DNA of 55,434 nucleotides from a virus (taxonomy: Duplodnaviria; Caudoviricetes): IMG/VR virus record IMGVR_UViG_3300025769_000146, positions 1 to 55,434 of that record; one strand, 5' to 3'. A program made the position numbers and the translations under genes. Shown here in pieces: positions 19,927 through 26,442 of the stretch. The notes under the pieces were generated by a model that was given only the letters and a program-made list of their open reading frames with translations, did not search any database and was not told the origin of the DNA. How positions within the stretch are numbered: the first letter of the stretch is position 1; each line of letters opens with the position of its first letter.

Positions 19927-20234
19927 GCAAGGTGACGAGGTCAACGAAAGACGCGCTCACACGGCTGGCGGCACTCATGCCAGAGTTTGTGGTCGAGCCG
20001 ACAGGGGAGCGTGGGCGGGTCATGTTTGGGACAGCCCATGACCCGTGGGGTCTAGGGCTCGTATCCAAGCGGTACACCGACGCACTTGGCTTGATGGCAG
20101 AGGTGGCTCGCGGTCGCGATAACGCTGACGACATTCGTCTGGCAGTCAGGTGGGGTGGCAAGTCCCCAACTGGTCTGCCCTCACACTACGAGGTCGCTTT
20201 CGAGTGGCTCGGCAATTGGGAGGATGGAGCATGA
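19923..20234 (+). CDS. Hypothetical protein
   Basis: Coupled ORF (ATGA overlaps). Confidence 0.6.
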   Translation: MSKVTRSTKDALTRLAALMPEFVVEPTGERGRVMFGTAHDPWGLGLVSKRYTDALGLMAEVARGRDNADDIRLAVRWGGKSPTGLPSHYEVAFEWLGNWEDGA

Positions 20235-21280
20235 TTAATGAAATTCTGGCTCGACTAGACAACGCCCACGACCGTGGTGCCGTGATCGCATCGTTTGCCG
20301 GAATGACGTTGCGCGACATCGCAGCCGCCCAGCCGGAGGATGTCTTGGACGGCTGGAGCCCACCAAGCTCCTACGATCATGGCCGCGCCTTGAGTGTTGA
20401 TGAGTCGATCGATCTGTTGAGCCTCGCGGACTCTCGTCGTGATTACGCCATCCTCTACCTCGCCACTGTGATGGGGCTACGGCAGATTGAGATTCGCCGA
20501 CTCACCTGGAGTGATGTTCTCGACAACGACTCTTTGCGGGTTGTGGGCAAGGGTGGGAAGAGGCGCACTGTTCCTGTCGGCATGAGTGCCCTCGAGTTGC
20601 TCCCAGAGCGCGGCGATAGTCCGTTTGTCTTCACCTCATACAGGGGCGGTTCGATCAGTGAGTCGGGTATGAGGCTCATTATTTCGAACTACCTAGAGCG
20701 TGTCACAGACACCTCGACGCCCCACGCGCTACGCCACACCTCTTTGACGGCGATGCTTGATCAAGGTGCCGACATCCGTACAGCCATGGAGCTTGCTGGT
20801 CACTCCTCCGTGTCGTCGCATGAAGTGTATGCGGCTACGTCCTCTTCATGGATCGTTCGCGAATGGGTCGAGCGTCACCCGCTTGGTGAGGTTCCGTGCG
20901 TGACCGTTCGCATCCCCGGTACGCCGTTCAAAGGCAAGATGGCTCGGGGGGTGGAGAGGGCCGTGCTGGTGCCATCACGATACGCAGATGATGTACGAGC
21001 AGCTTTGGCCTACTTTGGGAACGCCAAACAAATGACGAATCGTGCTCGCAAGATCGGTGTGCGTTTCCAAGAGATTCGTGATGCCGGTGCTATTGGCATG
21101 GTCGAGGCAGACGCGCACCCATTCCTTATTGCCATGTGCATGGGTACGACCCCAGGTAACGTGATCCGTCGCCGATTTGACCGCATGACTTCAGATGCAA
21201 ACAATGCGCGAGTTGATGCCGTCGCTAGTGTGCGTCAGATGTTCACAACAAACAGATTCATAGAGGTGGCAGCAACATGA
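20231..21280 (+). CDS. Tyrosine recombinase (Xer-like catalytic domain) with degenerate recombinase-like flanks
   Basis: Complete catalytic set: GLR, GKGGK, HALRH, GHSS, EVY. No recognisable N-terminal core-binding domain. Confidence 0.88.
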   Translation: MINEILARLDNAHDRGAVIASFAGMTLRDIAAAQPEDVLDGWSPPSSYDHGRALSVDESIDLLSLADSRRDYAILYLATVMGLRQIEIRRLTWSDVLDNDSLRVVGKGGKRRTVPVGMSALELLPERGDSPFVFTSYRGGSISESGMRLIISNYLERVTDTSTPHALRHTSLTAMLDQGADIRTAMELAGHSSVSSHEVYAATSSSWIVREWVERHPLGEVPCVTVRIPGTPFKGKMARGVERAVLVPSRYADDVRAALAYFGNAKQMTNRARKIGVRFQEIRDAGAIGMVEADAHPFLIAMCMGTTPGNVIRRRFDRMTSDANNARVDAVASVRQMFTTNRFIEVAAT

Positions 21281-22117: not shown

Positions 22118-22885
22118 TCAGACCATGCAGAAACCGGAATCACAACCACCAAAAAGATCCAAGTTGTCATGGTCGAGTACGGCATCCTGAAGAGACACCC
22201 GACTCTTGTGCAGGAACAAAAGCCCATCTCTCTCGTCCTTATCCTGAATCTCTTTTTCGAGTTCTATGGCTTTCTGCCACTCCTCGGGGTAGTTGTCCCG
22301 AATGTGTCTCCATTCTTCATTGGATCGATACGGGCACATCCAACACGCTGACCTGGGCGGGGTAGGCAACCCAGACAGTTGCACCAGGTTAATACACTCA
22401 TCTCTTCGGCGTGGCACATCTAAAAGCAAAGGCCAGTGATAGTGCAGCCAGGGAATCCCACTAGGCTTCGCACGATGAACCTCATCGACAGAGATTCCTA
22501 ACCACATTCTTGCTGGATTCTTTTTGCCATAGCCTTGATCTTTTGCCCACCGACTAATCACACGTTTCTTCCACTCGTTACTACAGAAGCCAGGCAGGGC
22601 ACCAGATTCCCCAGTGAATGCAGGGATCAAGAGATCACCATTGAGCGCGTAGAGGTCTACTGTTGCGTAATCGTGTGACGCAATCTCGACCTCAAGGCCA
22701 ACGGGTTCCAGTAACGGGTTCACCACATCGCGCGTGTAATCCCATGTCTCCTGGGCCTCGCGCCCTGTGTCTGCGATCACCACCCTATCGGGACGAGGTA
22801 ACTCGCCCCTAGCAACCAACACGGCGATTGCTACTGATTGAGTGCCGCCTCCGTAGGACCAAATGATCGGCAGTTCGTCGCTCAT
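22118..22885 (-). CDS. PAPS-reductase-like (adenine nucleotide alpha hydrolase) Fe-S protein
   Basis: SYGGGTQS PP-loop, ADTGRE, CSNEWK, GISVDE, SACWMCPY and C-terminal CDSGFC. Confidence 0.82.
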   Translation of the reverse strand: MSDELPIIWSYGGGTQSVAIAVLVARGELPRPDRVVIADTGREAQETWDYTRDVVNPLLEPVGLEVEIASHDYATVDLYALNGDLLIPAFTGESGALPGFCSNEWKKRVISRWAKDQGYGKKNPARMWLGISVDEVHRAKPSGIPWLHYHWPLLLDVPRRRDECINLVQLSGLPTPPRSACWMCPYRSNEEWRHIRDNYPEEWQKAIELEKEIQDKDERDGLLFLHKSRVSLQDAVLDHDNLDLFGGCDSGFCMV

Positions 22886-23242: not shown

Positions 23243-23466
23243 TTCATCGTCTCCACACGGGCCATATTAGGCGCATCTTTCGGGGTTGGATAACGCATAG
23301 TGCCGGAAGAGTCCCGACCTGGCATCGTCCCCTTGCCGGATGAAATGGCGACAAGTTTGCGCCACCTCTTGGCGATCTTTTCTGGGCTCATGGGTTTCGT
23401 GGACCGACCGCGTTCCTTCGCGACACCAAGCCAGCCGGTGTGTTTTCTTTTCCCCATCTCAATCAC
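23239..23466 (-). CDS. Small basic hypothetical protein
   Basis: Coupled ORF. Confidence 0.5.
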   Translation of the reverse strand: MIEMGKRKHTGWLGVAKERGRSTKPMSPEKIAKRWRKLVAISSGKGTMPGRDSSGTMRYPTPKDAPNMARVETMK

Positions 23467-23478
23467 TCTTTGTGAAGG

Positions 23479-23967
23479 TCAACTGAGTGCTCGGACAGCG
23501 TCAGCAAACGACATCCGTTTCGCCGCCATCCACAACTTTATCACATCGCCACCTTCGGCGCACACGAAACAGTACCAAAGGTTCTTGCCTGGCGTGATGT
23601 CTGTGGAGGGTCGAGAATCTTCGTGAAGCGGACACAGAGCCGTAACTCTATTCCCGCGTCTAATGGGACGACACCCAAGCTCCTCTAGGGCATCTACAAT
23701 TGGGTAAGATCGTGCTCGAGCGATTTGATCATCGGTGATTGAGGTTTGTAATCCCTGAGTTCTGGTGGGAGGCTTCGGGATCACGCCCGTGCAGCGGATA
23801 CAAGTACACCCAGGCACTGCTTCATAGGGCTTCAGGGGTTCCCCTCGCCGGAAGGCTTCTGCGATCTCCCACCAAAGATGACTACCCTCACGAAGACCGC
23901 CACTAGACCAACTGAGGACGATTTCGTCCAAGTCGATCTCACCCTTCTGCATGGTACTGGTCTTCAA
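23479..23967 (-). CDS. CHC2 zinc-finger protein (DnaG-type Zn-binding domain without TOPRIM)
   Basis: CPLHEDSRPS...WYCFVCAEGGDVI, plus an upstream CTCIRC. Start uncertain. Confidence 0.8.
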   Translation of the reverse strand: MKTSTMQKGEIDLDEIVLSWSSGGLREGSHLWWEIAEAFRRGEPLKPYEAVPGCTCIRCTGVIPKPPTRTQGLQTSITDDQIARARSYPIVDALEELGCRPIRRGNRVTALCPLHEDSRPSTDITPGKNLWYCFVCAEGGDVIKLWMAAKRMSFADAVRALS

Positions 23968-24124
23968 GGTCGGCCAGTTCTATAGAGAGGCTTTCATGCC
24001 ACCGCTCTAGCAAGGCGATGCGTTTGGCAATCGAAAGCCGTCGATACTCCTGACCACGCAGGACGGTAGGGCCGTTCTTATTCACGGCAAGCTCAACCAG
24101 GGTTCGCTGTTCACTGGTTGACAT
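23939..24124 (-). CDS. Hypothetical protein, possibly the frameshifted N-terminus of the CHC2 protein
   Basis: GAGGGG RBS; overlaps the next ORF in a different frame. Confidence 0.5.
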   Translation of the reverse strand: MSTSEQRTLVELAVNKNGPTVLRGQEYRRLSIAKRIALLERWHESLSIELADLEDQYHAEG

Positions 24125-24160
24125 CAGCCCCTCACTTGTTTTTGAAGAGAATCGCCATCA

Positions 24161-24239
24161 TGGAGGTGCTGGGAGTCGAACCCAGGTCCGGTCAGTGCCG
24201 CTAACGGCCTTACTAACCGTCGAAACCGTTACCACCCCC
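24161..24239 (-). ncRNA. ssrA: Minimal tmRNA-like RNA: tRNA-like domain only, no tag reading frame
   Basis: Minus strand reads GGGGGUG GUAACGGUUUCGA CGGUUAGU AAG GCCG UUAG CGGC ACUGACCG GAC CUGGG UUCGACU CCCAG CACCUCC A. This gives a 7-bp acceptor stem with G3:U70, a 13-nt tmRNA D-loop analogue ending GGxUUCGA, 8-bp helix 2a, GAC linker, T arm and discriminator A. CCA is not encoded. Confidence 0.85.
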
Positions 24240-24377
24240 CATGCGCCGGATGTGGGCTCAAATGCGCGCAGGAGCCATGACCTCCCTTTGCTACACCATC
24301 TCGCCCAACATCCGACTTCCCTAAGCCCGTTTCACTGGGTGCGCGCGGGCACCCTCCACGAACAAAGAGCATTGGAC

Positions 24378-24539
24378 TTACTCGTTGGTTGGCCCACCAA
24401 GAATGGAGAGGCTCACAAGCACACCACCGAAGAAGACTCCGACAGCCCACAGGTGATGTTGACCAAAATTGATCAACGAAACACCCAGCACACTTGTGAA
24501 CGCCATGACCACTCCAACTGATAGACGTTCGTCTACCAC
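24378..24539 (-). CDS. Small two-TM membrane protein (53 aa)
   Basis: Read by hand: GTG start overlapping the ssb end; MVDERLSVGVVMAFTSVLGVSLINFGQHHLWAVGVFFGGVLVSLSILGGPTNE. Confidence 0.5.
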   Translation of the reverse strand: MVDERLSVGVVMAFTSVLGVSLINFGQHHLWAVGVFFGGVLVSLSILGGPTNE

Positions 24540-24889
24540 GGGAGGTCGTCTTTCGGGTCAGCGGTAGGTGAGGGAGCGGCCTCACCATCGACGGCGCGGC
24601 GACCAAGGAACTCGACCTGGTTCACGATGACATCGGTCCAGTATCTGCCCTGCTCATCCTTTCGGATTTCGATACGACCGTTAATGCCGATCTTGTCGCC
24701 TTTCTTGACGTATTGAGCGATCAGTTCGCCCTTCTGGCCCCATGCTTTGCACCGGAACCAGTTGGTCAGCGTCTCACCTTTGAACTTACGGTTCTCGGCA
24801 ACACTGAACTCTACCAGCTTCGACCCAGAGTCAAATGTCCTGACTTCTGGATCGCCACCGACATTGCCAATTACGGTGAAGATGTTCAT
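24533..24889 (-). CDS. ssb: Single-stranded DNA-binding protein
   Basis: IGNVGGDPEVR, WFRCKAWG, KKGDKIGINGRI and acidic tail DDLPW. Confidence 0.95.
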   Translation of the reverse strand: MNIFTVIGNVGGDPEVRTFDSGSKLVEFSVAENRKFKGETLTNWFRCKAWGQKGELIAQYVKKGDKIGINGRIEIRKDEQGRYWTDVIVNQVEFLGRRAVDGEAAPSPTADPKDDLPW

Positions 24890-25122
24890 TACAAGTCCCC
24901 CTTGGCGGGTTCCTGCCTGAGATAACCCCAGGCTGTTTCGATGACGTGTCCGTGATTGAGTTGCTGATATAGGTAGTCAGCCATGGCGTCCCCATAACGA
25001 TCCACGATCAGCGTTCTGACCTCCGCTGGGTCCAACTGTATCCAACGGGTTTTTCGCCACTTCTCAGGATTTGACCCCTGAGTTTTGGGAACCATCTGAT
25101 ACCGCACAGCGCCCCTACTCAC
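24889..25122 (-). CDS. Hypothetical protein
   Basis: Coupled to ssb (TAATG). Confidence 0.55.
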   Translation of the reverse strand: MSRGAVRYQMVPKTQGSNPEKWRKTRWIQLDPAEVRTLIVDRYGDAMADYLYQQLNHGHVIETAWGYLRQEPAKGDL

Positions 25123-25162: not shown

Positions 25163-26053
25163 TTATTTGTGGGGCGTTTCGCTCGCAAGAGCATGGGTAA
25201 TAATCCGGTGGCCGATCCACTCGGCTACCTGTGGGACAACTGCATTACCTAGAGATCTAAGGCTGTCCACCCGACCGGGAACCCCATCAGCCACTCTACC
25301 CACCGGGGGTTCAATGCTCCACCAACCACCCGATTCCCCTTCTCCGTTTCTTCTAGGGTCGCGTCTCCCGAAAGAATCACCGCGTCCGTCAGCGTCCGAC
25401 CGTCGTTGTGCTGACTTCCAGGCTTCCTCACCGACGTAGCATTCCTCGCACCCTGAGCATCTTTTGCCACAGGAGTCGGCCAAAGATTGTGGCGAGCCAT
25501 TGATTGAAGACTGTGACGGATCGGCCCAACCCGTCCCGCCGACCCCCCTCTGTTGTTGCCATACGAACTCGCACTCGGTGTAGGCAACAATGAACATTCT
25601 CCATCGGAGATGCGGCGCACCAAAGGCGGAAGCTGGTACACAGAACCATTCCGCATCGTACCCCATTTCGGCCAAGGATGAGAGAACTTGGTCAAGCCCT
25701 CGAGTAGTGAGTACTGGGACGTTCTCCACGACAACGTAGCGGGGTCGTAGTTCGCGAATGACTCGGGCAAATTCAAACCACAGCCCAGATCTCGCTCCTG
25801 CCAGGCCCATCCCATTTGGCGCGGCTGTTGAGATGTCTTGGCAGGGGAATCCTCCGCAGATGACATCACATTCCTCCAGGTTATGAGCACCGACCTCTTC
25901 AACGAAAATGTGTTGAGGAATGTGAGGCCAGTGTTTGTGAAGAACATCACGGCAGAATTGGTCTTTTTCAACTTGCCAGATGACACTAAACCCAGCGCGT
26001 TCTAGCCCTAAATCTATCCCACCAATACCAGCGAACAGGCTTCCGACCTTCAT
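25163..26053 (-). CDS. dcm: C5 cytosine DNA methyltransferase, alpha chain (motifs I-VIII and X)
   Basis: FAGIGG, GFPCQ, ENV, HLRWRMF and LGNAVVP; ATG at 26053 overlaps the upstream stop. Confidence 0.92.
   Translation of the reverse strand: MKVGSLFAGIGGIDLGLERAGFSVIWQVEKDQFCRDVLHKHWPHIPQHIFVEEVGAHNLEECDVICGGFPCQDISTAAPNGMGLAGARSGLWFEFARVIRELRPRYVVVENVPVLTTRGLDQVLSSLAEMGYDAEWFCVPASAFGAPHLRWRMFIVAYTECEFVWQQQRGVGGTGWADPSQSSINGSPQSLADSCGKRCSGCEECYVGEEAWKSAQRRSDADGRGDSFGRRDPRRNGEGESGGWWSIEPPVGRVADGVPGRVDSLRSLGNAVVPQVAEWIGHRIITHALASETPHK
25249..25986 (-). CDS. Nested alternative-frame ORF: methyltransferase beta chain (motif IX); start uncertain
   Basis: LLPTP and LWPTP repeats and LNPRWVEWLMGFPVGWT, entirely inside the alpha gene in another frame. 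Confidence 0.75.
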   Translation of the reverse strand: MSSGKLKKTNSAVMFFTNTGLTFLNTFSLKRSVLITWRNVMSSAEDSPAKTSQQPRQMGWAWQERDLGCGLNLPESFANYDPATLSWRTSQYSLLEGLTKFSHPWPKWGTMRNGSVYQLPPLVRRISDGECSLLPTPSASSYGNNRGGSAGRVGPIRHSLQSMARHNLWPTPVAKDAQGARNATSVRKPGSQHNDGRTLTDAVILSGDATLEETEKGNRVVGGALNPRWVEWLMGFPVGWTALDL

Positions 26054-26442
26054 CCGTGGATATCGGGGCTCATCCAATGATCATACAACCACACGGCGAC
26101 TAATATCCCCATGACGGCGCGTTGGAAATCATTGGGCACCGGATAGACGCCCACCCACGACACCATGAGCACGATGGCTAACAAGGCGGCATTCCAACCT
26201 CGACCAAAGCGGCGGTGCTGCGAGAACGATCTCTGTAGGTAAGTCATCGTCTCGGAGAGGGTGTCGCGTTCCTGGTTCGGGCCTTTGTAGAACACGCCGG
26301 TTAACTCGACAGCCAAGAAATACACGAACCACATAGCCCACGGAGTTAGCGTTGGGCCTGTCGCAAACAGGTAGATCGTCGCCAACCCCCAGACACCCCA
26401 CAGCACAGAGAACACCGGATGGGGGTTTCTTTGGATTCCCAT
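26050..26442 (-). CDS. Multi-TM membrane protein
   Basis: Four hydrophobic segments; DTLSE motif; coupled to its neighbours. Confidence 0.7.
   Translation of the reverse strand: MGIQRNPHPVFSVLWGVWGLATIYLFATGPTLTPWAMWFVYFLAVELTGVFYKGPNQERDTLSETMTYLQRSFSQHRRFGRGWNAALLAIVLMVSWVGVYPVPNDFQRAVMGILVAVWLYDHWMSPDIHG

What the first reader, a model, noticed from the sequence alone, without database searches (positions are those of the whole stretch)
24161..24239. Phage-encoded tagless mini-tmRNA: the tRNA-like domain alone
Seen: a 79-nt minus-strand element carries every hallmark of the tmRNA tRNA-like domain (TLD) in one-piece order. These are a GGGGGUG/CACCUCC acceptor stem with G3:U70 and discriminator A (alanyl-tRNA synthetase identity), a stemless 13-nt D-loop analogue GUAACGGUUUCGA, helix 2a CGGUUAGU/ACUGACCG, a GAC linker and a canonical T arm. 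The region that normally holds pk1, the tag ORF and pk2-4 is replaced by 15 nt (AAG-GCCG-UUAG-CGGC), capped neatly as a tetraloop hairpin, which argues for selection rather than decay. Established: bacterial and known phage tmRNAs carry a tag frame; TLD-only forms are known from some mitochondria (e.g. jakobids); in vitro, TLD plus SmpB can add Ala on ribosomes without a codon. Inference: the phage RNA could (a) sequester host SmpB and block trans-translation, (b) add Ala or poly-Ala to stalled chains without template switching, or (c) rescue ribosomes stalled by anti-phage mRNA/tRNA nucleases; it has no anticodon to cut. No smpB is visible here, so it would use the host protein. tRNA and tmRNA finders would probably miss it.
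Basis: partly seen in the sequence, partly recalled or inferred. Interest (0 to 1): 0.93.

Follow-up and report, generated by a model that had tools for sequence, protein, structure and literature searches.

The report
Phage tag-less mini-tmRNA gene
This freshwater phage carries a real 79-base gene that copies only the alanine-accepting, tRNA-like end of the bacterial ribosome-rescue RNA (tmRNA); one such phage RNA is already published, the type is common but rarely annotated in phages, and it probably interferes with the host's rescue-and-tag system.

Summary
Window 24161-24239 (minus strand) matches Rfam tmRNA end to end (64.6 bits, cut-off 47), with 15 nt where the model has 308 positions.

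It is neither chance nor an assembly collapse. A contig from another sample spans it unchanged. All four helices covary across 90 distinct sequences. Where the acceptor stem was not imposed, G3:U70 is kept in 92 of 93 and discriminator A in 93 of 93.

The kind is already known. Mycobacteriophage DS6A is listed as 'TLD only' (TLD = tRNA-like domain) and reported to inhibit E. coli tmRNA (PMC4131195, PMC11915505). I located that copy, and it has the same architecture, including the A-rich bulge and CC/GG cap. This scan has also reported the kind on other DNA (23 notes).

The most likely role is a host-SmpB-dependent, alanine-charged competitor of host tmRNA. This is inferred; expression, charging and binding are untested.

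Verdict: new member of a known kind, moderate interest.

The parts
24161..24239 (-). Mini-tmRNA (TLD-only), 79 nt from G1 to discriminator A. The Rfam match runs 3 nt further, to 24158, where CCA would lie; the DNA reads UGA there, so CCA is not encoded.
   Evidence: model R1: 96.2 bits
24233..24239 (-). Acceptor stem, 5' strand GGGGGUG (G3 pairs with U70)
   Evidence: 7 of 7 pairs
24220..24232 (-). D-loop analogue GUAACGGUUUCGA, with no D stem; it contains the conserved GG and UUCGA
24212..24219 (-). Helix 2a, 5' strand CGGUUAGU
24209..24211 (-). A-rich bulge AAG; the family consensus is A-A-R
24197..24208 (-). Cap hairpin GCCG-UUAG-CGGC. It corresponds to the start of helix 2b of full tmRNA, closed by a tetraloop.
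24189..24196 (-). Helix 2a, 3' strand ACUGACCG
24186..24188 (-). Linker GAC; the A is invariant in 90 of 90 family members
24169..24185 (-). T arm CUGGG-UUCGACU-CCCAG
24162..24168 (-). Acceptor stem, 3' strand CACCUCC
24240..24377 (-). 138-nt non-coding 5' leader with a long hairpin (about 24245-24316) that ends about 5 nt before G1. The 125-aa ORF 24229-24606 drawn across it looks spurious.
24378..24539 (-). 53-aa hydrophobic small ORF upstream, same strand
24533..24889 (-). Single-strand DNA-binding protein gene upstream, same strand
23939..24124 (-). 61-aa ORF that starts 36 nt after the discriminator, same strand
23479..23967 (-). DnaG-type zinc-ribbon (primase-like) protein gene downstream, same strand
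20150..21280 (+). Tyrosine integrase, 2.9 kb away on the other strand. It is not adjacent to the RNA gene, which matters for the attP rival.

Best explanation
The element is a functional phage gene for a 'TLD-only' mini-tmRNA. It comprises the acceptor stem, D-loop analogue, helix 2a and T arm of tmRNA. Helix 2 is closed after an A-rich bulge by a short CC/GG hairpin. There is no resume codon, no tag frame and no pseudoknot.

Proposed course of events (inferred, not shown):
1. It is transcribed inside the minus-strand early/replication operon (SSB to primase-like gene).
2. It is cut out like a tRNA, by RNase P at the 5' end and by trimming plus CCA addition at the 3' end.
3. It is charged with alanine by host AlaRS through G3:U70 and A73.
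4. It is bound by host SmpB at the elbow.
5. It is delivered by EF-Tu to ribosomes stalled on non-stop mRNAs.

Because it offers no template, it competes with host tmRNA for SmpB and for stalled ribosomes. This blocks or diverts the tagging arm of trans-translation during infection.

Shown here: the anatomy, membership of a large covarying phage family, conservation of the alanine identity set and of residues I map to SmpB contacts, and absence of a phage smpB.
For: Identity
- RF00023 scores 64.6 bits against a cut-off of 47, end to end.
- My model R1 scores 96.2 bits here and 52.3 bits on the published DS6A copy.

Not an artefact
- A 352-nt contig from a sample not flagged as the source covers 23968-24319 with 0 differences and 0 gaps.
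- Two viral-contig scans each stopped at 119 rows.

Selection on structure
- In 90 distinct sequences, 95.7% of cells are paired against 65.6% in shuffles.
- 18 of 24 pairs show changes on both sides.
- The covariation score is 0.688 against 0.136 shuffled (0 of 500 shuffles reach it) and 0.03-0.08 for slid controls.

Selection on charging
- The second scan did not constrain the acceptor. Among its 93 unique sequences with at least 6 acceptor pairs, G1:C72 occurs in 93, G2:C71 in 92, G3:U70 in 92 and A73 in 93.
- Pair 4 varies freely: GC 66, CG 16, AU 5, UA 4, GU 2.

Elbow and SmpB surface
- The D-loop GG is kept in 87 of 89 and 71 of 89. The linker A is kept in 90 of 90. Neither was imposed by the first pattern.
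- PMC8363625 passages name A15, U17, A334 and G19 as SmpB contacts. My mapping of these onto UUCGA and the linker A is recalled, not aligned.

Dependence on host SmpB
- PF01668 has no match in the window.
- It also has no match in 0 of 5 complete (99-100%) carrier phage genomes. Each of those 5 has the mini as its only above-threshold tmRNA match.

Function
- PMC4131195 and PMC11915505 state that the DS6A-like form inhibits endogenous tmRNA in E. coli, citing Mao 2009.
- PMC3895274 (discussion passage) reports that a TLD-only tmRNA undergoes peptidyl transfer in vitro, citing Shimizu and Ueda 2006.
Against: - None of expression, processing, alanylation or SmpB binding has been shown for this RNA.
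- Hudson et al. (PMC4131195) say inhibition by the similar molecule did not depend on chargeability. A pure SmpB sponge would therefore not explain why G3:U70 and A73 are kept.
- Some phages need host trans-translation. PMC2481249 passages say the lambda-immP22 hybrid plates only on tmRNA-proficient cells. Blocking the pathway is therefore not obviously good for a phage.
- The E. coli inhibition result is known to me only through two citing papers; Mao 2009 is not held.
- The host of this phage is unknown.
- Both viral scans imposed parts of the TLD consensus, and alignment A3 was fitted to the model. The pair counts therefore lean towards the structure.
Confidence: 0.55

Rival explanations
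1. Tag-less rescue helper. The same charged RNA-SmpB complex enters stalled ribosomes and accepts the nascent chain on alanine. With no template, it hands the complex to a release route (an ArfB-type factor, peptidyl-tRNA hydrolase after drop-off, or further rounds that add more alanines). Ribosomes are freed without marking phage proteins for proteolysis. That would help when host nucleases cut phage mRNAs or tRNAs.
For: - The alanine identity set is conserved where it was not imposed, which a pure sponge does not need.
- TLD-only RNA accepts peptidyl transfer in vitro (PMC3895274 passage).
- CDS-less tmRNAs persist with SmpB in mitochondria and are thought to help with incomplete mRNAs (PMC11915505 passage).
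- Many copies sit in phage tRNA arrays: 12 of 60 loci have a tRNA within about 100 nt. Others sit inside late head-gene operons, where translation capacity matters.
Against: - PMC2481249 passages state that, to support phage growth, tmRNA must resume on its template and terminate at a stop codon. In E. coli a template-less form is therefore not expected to release ribosomes by itself.
- The DS6A-like form is reported as an inhibitor, not a substitute.
- No release step has been shown for any TLD-only RNA.
Confidence: 0.27
2. Decoy for host defences or RNases. The RNA mimics tmRNA or tRNA to soak up or mislead host factors other than SmpB, such as RNase R, tRNA- or tmRNA-cleaving nucleases, or defence proteins with SmpB-like domains. 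It has no anticodon loop to cut.
For: - CoCoNuT defence systems carry SmpB-like OB folds predicted to bind tmRNA (PMC11090510 passages).
- A phage anti-CRISPR works through tRNA and tmRNA fragments, and that paper's discussion notes that tmRNA-SmpB regulates RNase R (PMC11662646 passages).
- The A-A bulge and CC/GG cap are conserved in sequence as well as in pairing, as expected for a recognition site.
Against: - No defence or counter-defence gene is consistently next to the RNA.
- The conserved residues are those of a working TLD (charging, elbow, T loop). The ordinary SmpB/AlaRS/EF-Tu partners explain them more simply.
- Nothing here tests any such interaction.
Confidence: 0.08
3. Integration-site relic or decaying remnant. 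The element is an attP-type copy of ssrA sequence, or a deleted ssrA picked up from a host, with no RNA function of its own.
For: - tmRNA genes are common phage integration sites (PMC10865867 and PMC11915505 passages).
- The window phage has a tyrosine integrase.
I did not test that.
- Streptomyces phage Alone3's copy has mismatches in the T stem and helix 2a and scores only 33.4 bits, so some copies do decay.
Against: - An attP needs only the 3' part of ssrA, whereas this element has both halves joined and folded.
- The integrase lies 2.9 kb away on the other strand, and nothing tRNA-like lies beside it.
- In other phages the RNA sits in tRNA arrays or between head genes, not by integrases.
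- DS6A integrates at a tRNA-Lys site (PMC10865867 table).
- In 4 of 4 bacterial genomes that hold both forms, the mini differs from the resident ssrA in acceptor, helix 2a and T stem.
- Covariation across 90 sequences is not expected of relics.
Confidence: 0.04
4. Assembly artefact. A full-length ssrA was collapsed during metagenome assembly.
For: None found. The window is a metagenome assembly.
Against: - An independent sample's contig spans the element with no gap or joint (tables 4, 5, 8).
- The same architecture is found in cultured, finished phage genomes: DS6A, pSt2308, LuckySocke and BRock.
- It is also found in more than 150 other viral contigs.
Confidence: 0.01

Closest known systems
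'TLD only' (CDS-less) tmRNA of Mycobacterium phage DS6A (Hudson, Lau & Williams 2014, PMC4131195; Mao et al. 2009 as cited; PMC11915505)
   Same: - Phage-encoded and one-piece, with a complete tRNA-like domain.
- Helix 2a is followed by an A-rich bulge and a short CC/GG hairpin with a 4-nt loop, in place of the tag frame and pseudoknots.
- G3:U70 and discriminator A are present.
- I located it at JN698994 28478-28560, unannotated. Model R1 aligns it end to end at 52.3 bits.
   Different: - The sequences differ: BLAST with the window's 82 nt did not list DS6A in its best 40 rows.
- The host and habitat differ (actinobacterial versus an unknown freshwater host).
- DS6A's copy lies between gp33 and a DNA polymerase III gene. 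The window's lies between SSB and primase-like genes, behind a 138-nt structured leader.
- DS6A's copy scores below the Rfam cut-off (43.2 bits) and the window's scores above it (64.6 bits).
Standard one-piece bacterial and phage tmRNA (Rfam RF00023), e.g. the annotated tmRNA of Mycobacterium phage Kumao
   Same: The same tRNA-like domain, including the GGnUUCGAC / GGAC elbow motifs, helix 2a and T arm. The A-rich bulge and CC stem match the 'GAa' bulge and the start of helix 2b in the Rfam consensus.
   Different: It lacks 308 model positions: the resume codon, tag reading frame with stop, helix 5 and all four pseudoknots. It therefore cannot serve as a message.
CDS-less organellar tmRNAs: jakobid/oomycete mitochondrial tmRNA and the ~65-bp plastid forms of Mallomonadaceae (PMC11915505 passages; Jacob et al. 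2004 as cited there)
   Same: A tRNA-like domain without a tag frame, retained under selection and working with an SmpB encoded elsewhere.
   Different: These are organellar rather than viral and descend from the organelle's own ssrA. I made no sequence comparison here. Rfam's clan competition kept RF00023 as the best model for the window element.
Engineered TLD fragments used in biochemistry and crystallography (Shimizu & Ueda 2006 as cited in PMC3895274; the truncated tmRNA-SmpB-EF-Tu-ribosome crystal structure as cited in PMC8363625)
   Same: Acceptor, D-loop analogue, T arm and a capped helix 2. These constructs are reported to bind SmpB and EF-Tu, enter the A site and accept peptidyl transfer.
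   Different: They are artificial, and I have seen their exact sequences and caps in no call. The natural family keeps a specific bulge-plus-hairpin cap.
Phage-encoded tRNA genes (tRNA-Ala in particular)
   Same: The same acceptor identity (G3:U70, A73) and T arm. In other phages the gene is often placed inside tRNA arrays.
   Different: There is no D stem and no anticodon arm. ARAGORN calls no tRNA here. The best Rfam family is tmRNA, not tRNA.

Membership tests
tmRNA (RF00023; functional trans-translation RNA) | Score at or above the family's curated gathering score, matching both ends of the model | tested here: met
   64.6 bits against 47; model positions 1-374
tmRNA (RF00023; functional trans-translation RNA) | 7-bp acceptor stem with G3:U70 and discriminator A (alanine identity) | tested here: met
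   In the family it is kept in 92 of 93 and 93 of 93 where not imposed.
tmRNA (RF00023; functional trans-translation RNA) | D-loop analogue without a D stem, GG...UUCGAC / GGAC elbow, helix 2a and a canonical T arm | tested here: met
tmRNA (RF00023; functional trans-translation RNA) | mRNA-like domain: resume codon, tag reading frame and stop codon | tested here: not met
   Only 15 nt lie between the strands of helix 2a, where the model has 308 positions. ARAGORN finds no tag peptide.
tmRNA (RF00023; functional trans-translation RNA) | Pseudoknots PK1-PK4 and helix 5 | tested here: not met
   (positions absent)
tmRNA (RF00023; functional trans-translation RNA) | Alanylation by AlaRS and binding of SmpB and EF-Tu | not testable with these tools
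   Only the sequence determinants could be checked
Phage TLD-only (CDS-less) mini-tmRNA, DS6A type | Complete one-piece TLD, with helix 2 closed by a few tens of nucleotides or fewer in place of the tag frame and pseudoknots | tested here: met
   79 nt with a 15-nt insert. The family ranges from 61 to 86 nt, and 37 of 90 are 79 nt.
Phage TLD-only (CDS-less) mini-tmRNA, DS6A type | Encoded in a phage genome | tested here: met
   The record is a virus record carrying DnaB, integrase, SSB, terminase, scaffold and tail-hub genes
Phage TLD-only (CDS-less) mini-tmRNA, DS6A type | A-rich bulge plus CC/GG mini-hairpin cap, shared with DS6A | tested here: met
   Window AAG + GCCG-UUAG-CGGC; DS6A AAAA + CCGC-ACGC-GGU region. 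Column counts: A 76 of 81, A 68 of 78, C 73 of 77, C 62 of 75, G 61 of 77, G 71 of 78.
Phage TLD-only (CDS-less) mini-tmRNA, DS6A type | Inhibits host tmRNA when expressed | not tested
   Reported for the DS6A-like form in E. coli by citing papers only. The primary paper is not held.
tRNA (RF00005 / ARAGORN) | D stem and anticodon arm | tested here: not met
   ARAGORN makes no call. No tRNA match was kept at this place in the Rfam search at gathering threshold.
attP copy of the 3' end of ssrA | Lies beside the integrase gene and consists of the 3' part of the host gene only | tested here: not met
   The integrase is 2.9 kb away on the other strand. The element includes the 5' half. No tRNA-like match lies near the integrase at E <= 1.

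The most novel reading that the evidence does not exclude
The mini-tmRNA is not a passive SmpB sponge. It is a widespread, actively charged phage tool that rewires ribosome rescue. Ala-mini-tmRNA-SmpB enters non-stop ribosomes and takes the nascent chain. Having no template, it forces an untagged outcome: release by an ArfB-type factor or drop-off, or repeated rounds that build a short alanine tail. This shields phage proteins and mRNAs from the ClpXP and RNase R arm of trans-translation, or blunts abortive-infection nucleases that act by creating stalled ribosomes. The sequence-conserved A-A bulge and CC/GG cap would then be a dedicated recognition site. A syntenic copy at the head of a ThiF/VWA gene cluster in Nostocales suggests that cells or their islands use the same RNA.
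Probability: 0.25. Interest if true: 0.75.

Novelty: new member of a known kind. Interest (0 to 1): 0.42.

Why it matters
Trans-translation is the main bacterial ribosome-rescue pathway and a drug target. A natural, compact RNA that phages of many lineages keep under selection, and that is predicted to compete with tmRNA for SmpB and stalled ribosomes, would be a ready-made antagonist. It would also mark an unexplored front of phage-host conflict.

In practice, these genes are above the Rfam threshold yet unannotated in the cultured phage records I looked at (DS6A, pSt2308, LuckySocke, BRock, Alone3), and GiJojo has a 'hypothetical protein' drawn over it. Annotation pipelines therefore miss a common phage RNA.

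For this window the finding adds one more member, not a new kind.

Tried and rejected
Host and relatives
- BLAST of the 1-kb region against cultured phages found nothing.
- The terminase has matches of at most 26.1% identity among the 15 cultured-phage records listed; all 691 matching records fall in the under-60% band.
- The search for related loci with the primase-like protein found no relative.
- With the terminase it found one 18-kb fragment (78% identity, 29% complete) without the RNA, which says nothing.
- The host stays unknown. The phiJL001-gp84-like hub only hints at a proteobacterial host, and I make no claim from it.

Expression
- The one RNA-library run laid (X24) covers only 24868-25000 and nothing over the element. 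Contigs of X9 and X11 also do not cover it. This is absence of cover only, not evidence.

Promoter and terminator scan
- The scan of 23400-25000 found 0 sites of either kind, which is uninformative.

Other checks
- MAFFT alone misaligned the 5' ends, so I built model R1 from 8 equal-length members and realigned.
- The 125-aa ORF 24229-24606, which overlaps the RNA's 5' end, was rejected as coding on its composition only; I ran no homology search.
- No protein family recurs next to the RNA across lineages, so I dropped the idea of a dedicated partner protein and did not use complex prediction.
- ARAGORN on 60 carrier loci made no call at the mini in 57. It made 2 spurious long 'tmRNA' calls (L009, L079) and 1 'tRNA-Glu' call (L078) over it.
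- Of 66 genome contigs pattern hits, only 36 loci scored 43.8 bits or more with R1. I treated the rest as doubtful.
- L147 (Sphingomonas) was not confirmed by R1, and its genome gave no above-threshold RF00023 match.
- Supplementary files of papers were not opened. The tmRNA database tables of PMC11915505 and PMC4131195 may list further phage TLD-only entries that I could not see.
- Literature searches for prior description of a broad phage family found only the DS6A statements.
Full report
WHAT IS THERE

On the minus strand, 24239 to 24161 reads as follows:
- a 7-bp acceptor stem (GGGGGUG / CACCUCC, with G3 opposite U70)
- a 13-nt D-loop analogue without a stem (GUAACGGUUUCGA)
- an 8-bp helix 2a (CGGUUAGU / ACUGACCG)
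- a 3-nt bulge (AAG)
- a 4-bp hairpin with a tetraloop (GCCG-UUAG-CGGC)
- the linker GAC
- a T arm (CUGGG-UUCGACU-CCCAG)
- a discriminator A

Rfam's tmRNA model RF00023 matches 24158-24239 from its first to its last position at 64.6 bits (gathering score 47, E 5.4e-23). Fifteen nucleotides stand where the model has 308 positions. The minimum-free-energy fold reproduces the four helices at -35.4 kcal/mol, and 2 of 200 shuffles fold as well. ARAGORN reports no tRNA or tmRNA anywhere in the window. Its guess that finders would miss the element holds for ARAGORN but not for Infernal with Rfam.

THE WINDOW IS A PHAGE

The window is a whole virus record of 55,434 bases, estimated 89% complete. It encodes:
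- a DnaB helicase, a PD-(D/E)XK protein and an AAA ATPase
- a tyrosine integrase, a C5 cytosine methylase and SSB
- a DnaG-type zinc-ribbon protein
- a gpA-type large terminase, a scaffold protein and a tail hub

The stretch around the element is held by runs labelled freshwater or estuary metagenomes from many samples. No smpB is present: PF01668 gives 0 matches, while the control search matches 10 of 14 reference genomes, all of them bacteria.

NOT AN ARTEFACT

A 352-nt contig from a run not flagged as the source sample covers 23968-24319 with no differing letter, gap or joint (tables 3-5 and 8). The same architecture also occurs in finished genomes of cultured phages (see 'Already known' below).

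A LARGE COVARYING FAMILY

Together with the window this gives 120 loci and 90 distinct sequences of 61-86 nt, of which 37 are 79 nt long.
- All 120 have 7 of 7 acceptor pairs, although the pattern fixed only 4 of them.
- All 90 have 5 of 5 T-stem pairs, although the pattern fixed only 2.

I built covariance model R1 from 8 equal-length members including the window. It found one match in each of the 90 sources, at 45.5-99.1 bits. On that alignment:
- 95.7% of cells are standard pairs, against 65.6% after shuffling.
- 18 of 24 pairs show changes on both sides. The six that never vary are the ones the pattern fixed.
- The covariation score is 0.688, against 0.136 for shuffles (0 of 500 reach it) and 0.03-0.08 when partners are slid by 1-3 columns.
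- Helix 2a covaries at 8 of 8 pairs and the cap hairpin at 4 of 4.

Caveats: the alignment was fitted to the model, the sequences are related, and the pattern preselected TLD-like sequences.

IS THE ALANINE IDENTITY KEPT WHEN IT IS NOT IMPOSED?

A second pattern fixed only the internal elbow and T-loop motifs and left the acceptor free. It also stopped at 119 contigs, 41 of them new. It gave 96 distinct sequences, of which 92 have 7 of 7 acceptor pairs. Among the 93 with at least 6 pairs:
- G1:C72 occurs in 93 and G2:C71 in 92.
- G3:U70 occurs in 92 and the discriminator is A in 93.
- Pair 4 varies freely: GC 66, CG 16, AU 5, UA 4, GU 2.

Three sequences with 3-5 acceptor pairs (L208, L222, L216) look like something else and were left out of these counts. 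The conservation of G3:U70 and A73 argues that charging with alanine is under selection, not only protein binding.

THE 15-NT CAP IS A CONSERVED MODULE

In the model-based alignment the bulge is A in 76 of 81 and A in 68 of 78. It is followed by C in 73 of 77 and C in 62 of 75, pairing with G in 61 of 77 and G in 71 of 78. The D-loop GG is kept in 87 of 89 and 71 of 89, and the linker reads G 80, A 90 and C 76 of 90. None of these positions was fixed by the first pattern.

The Rfam consensus, seen on a full-length phage tmRNA, shows a 3-nt 'GAa' bulge after helix 2a and then a C-rich helix 2b strand. The mini form therefore keeps helix 2a, the bulge and the first pairs of helix 2b, closed by a tetraloop. 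A shorter subtype caps helix 2a directly (61-66 nt: L034, L038, L048, L078, L112, L117).

PMC8363625 (passages) names A15, U17 and A334 as the pocket for SmpB Trp122. It also names G19 as a residue whose change to C prevents SmpB binding. I equate U17 and G19 with the UUCGA motif and A334 with the invariant linker A. That mapping rests on recalled numbering and was not checked by alignment.

CONTEXT

In the window, the gene lies on the same strand as, and between, SSB plus a 53-aa hydrophobic ORF upstream and a 61-aa ORF plus the primase-like gene downstream. It has a 138-nt non-coding leader that folds into a long hairpin ending about 5 nt before G1. CCA is not encoded; the next bases are UGA. 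In the family, CCA follows in 31 of 90.

In other phages:
- 15 of 60 carrier loci hold tRNA genes, and in 12 a tRNA lies within about 100 nt of the RNA.
- In two unrelated groups the RNA sits inside the head-gene operon on the coding strand. One group has it between large terminase and portal (L002 type, 6 loci). The other has it between prohead protease and major capsid protein (L005 type, 6 loci). See; Pfam was run on representatives only.
- No protein family recurs beside it across groups.
- Five complete (99-100%) carrier genomes of 74-168 kb have no SmpB match (0 of 5). In each, the 81-84-nt mini is the only RF00023 match above threshold, at 51-76 bits, so none carries a full-length tmRNA.

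DISTRIBUTION OUTSIDE VIRAL CONTIGS

The first pattern found only 66 stretches in one genome each of 185,579 prokaryote species, and 36 of those loci score 43.8 bits or more with R1. In four such genomes (a Streptomyces, a Mycobacterium MAG, a Terracoccus and a Nostoc) the mini form coexists with a normal full-length tmRNA of 131-170 bits. It differs from that tmRNA in acceptor, helix 2a and T-stem sequence. The mini is therefore an extra, separately evolving gene and not a recent deletion of the resident ssrA.

ALREADY KNOWN

- Hudson, Lau and Williams 2014 (PMC4131195; table 2 and text passages) list 'Mycobacterium phage DS6A (TLD only)'. [quoted passage not shown] 2009).
[quoted passage not shown] It also mentions CDS-less mitochondrial and ~65-bp plastid forms.
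- Mao 2009 itself is not held.

I located the DS6A copy at JN698994 28478-28560, unannotated, between gp33 and a DNA polymerase III gene. It scores 43.2 bits with RF00023, below the cut-off, and 52.3 bits with R1, and it has the same bulge-and-cap design.

Unannotated copies also sit in the tRNA arrays of cultured Streptomyces phages:
- pSt2308: 61 bits with RF00023
- LuckySocke: 57.8 bits with R1
- BRock: 53.4 bits with R1
- Alone3: 33.4 bits with R1, with mismatched T-stem and helix 2a pairs
- GiJojo: BLAST only

This scan has reported the same kind on other DNA: 23 notes hold the search words, and the 8 shown reach the same reading.

HOW IT MOST LIKELY WORKS

Shown:
- a complete, covarying TLD
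- a conserved alanine identity set, elbow and T loop
- no template
- no phage SmpB

From the literature:
- TLD fragments bind SmpB and EF-Tu on the ribosome and accept peptidyl transfer (PMC8363625 and PMC3895274 passages).
- The DS6A-like form inhibits tmRNA in E. coli.

Inferred: the RNA is cut out of the operon transcript like a tRNA, receives CCA, is alanylated and binds host SmpB. It then competes with host tmRNA for SmpB and for non-stop ribosomes. I give this 0.55.

The main rival, at 0.27, is that the same entry step serves productive, tag-less rescue. Conserved chargeability favours some ribosome-level action over pure titration. Against productive rescue, PMC2481249 (passages) says that supporting phage growth in E. 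coli requires resumption and termination on the tmRNA template.

The decoy (0.08), att-site or relic (0.04) and artefact (0.01) readings are weaker, for the reasons given under rivals. DS6A integrates at a tRNA-Lys site, not at ssrA (PMC10865867 table).

VERDICT

The element is real, well formed and under selection, but it is a new member of a published, if obscure, kind. What goes beyond the two papers I read is the following:
- the breadth of the family
- the test of acceptor identity without imposing it
- the conserved bulge-and-cap module
- the placement inside head-gene operons
- the syntenic Nostocales copy

Function in a natural phage-host pair remains untested.

LIMITS

- The host is unknown.
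- There is no expression data.
- Both scans were capped and motif-biased.
- The primary functional paper and all supplements were unseen.

Noticed in passing
window 24240-24377 (minus strand): The 138-nt non-coding leader directly upstream of the mini-tmRNA folds into a long hairpin (about 24245-24316) that ends about 5 nt before G1. A GC-rich stem-loop lies further upstream. It could be a processing or stability element of the precursor. The 125-aa ORF drawn across it looks spurious by composition.
   Followed up: partly
L129 6465-6545 (-), with L135, L148, L161, L164, L189 (and L151, L165, L166): Nostocales genomes (several Nostoc, Aetokthonos, Tolypothrix) share an ~81-nt mini-tmRNA at a syntenic spot; flanking DNA is 80-94% identical in five of them. 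It lies downstream of an aldehyde dehydrogenase gene and at the head of a same-strand cluster encoding a VWA (CoxE-like) protein, a ThiF-family protein and unknowns. The Nostoc genome also has a normal tmRNA. This may be a cellular or island-borne use of the same RNA.
   Followed up: partly
L002, L046, L068, L069, L086, L099 and L005, L016, L043, L075, L105, L116: In two unrelated phage groups the mini-tmRNA sits inside the head-morphogenesis operon on the coding strand. One group has it between large terminase and portal, the other between prohead protease and major capsid protein. That is an unusual place for a tRNA-like gene and implies late co-transcription and processing.
   Followed up: partly
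L034, L038, L048, L078, L112, L117: A shorter subtype (61-66 nt) lacks the bulge and second hairpin; helix 2a is capped directly by a 2-3-nt loop.
   Followed up: no
L236 1478-1554 (Streptomyces phage Alone3): The copy in Alone3 has two mismatched T-stem pairs and two mismatched helix 2a pairs (33.4 bits with R1, against 57.8 in its relative LuckySocke). It may be a decaying copy and could serve as a natural loss-of-function comparison.
   Followed up: no
L009 2976-3318 and L079 2266-2698: ARAGORN builds long 'tmRNA' calls with implausible tag peptides that end on the 3' end of a mini-tmRNA. These are likely false full-length annotations triggered by the mini form.
   Followed up: no
L205, L210 (second viral scan): These are longer variants (about 95 nt) with an extended, GC-rich helix 2 in place of the short cap. 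They fit the earlier notes of 'long-form' mini-tmRNAs in this scan.
   Followed up: no
window 25163-26077 and 22118-22885 (minus strand): The same early operon carries a C5 cytosine DNA methyltransferase and a PAPS-reductase-like protein (phrog_424). These are probably DNA-modification or anti-restriction functions.
   Followed up: no
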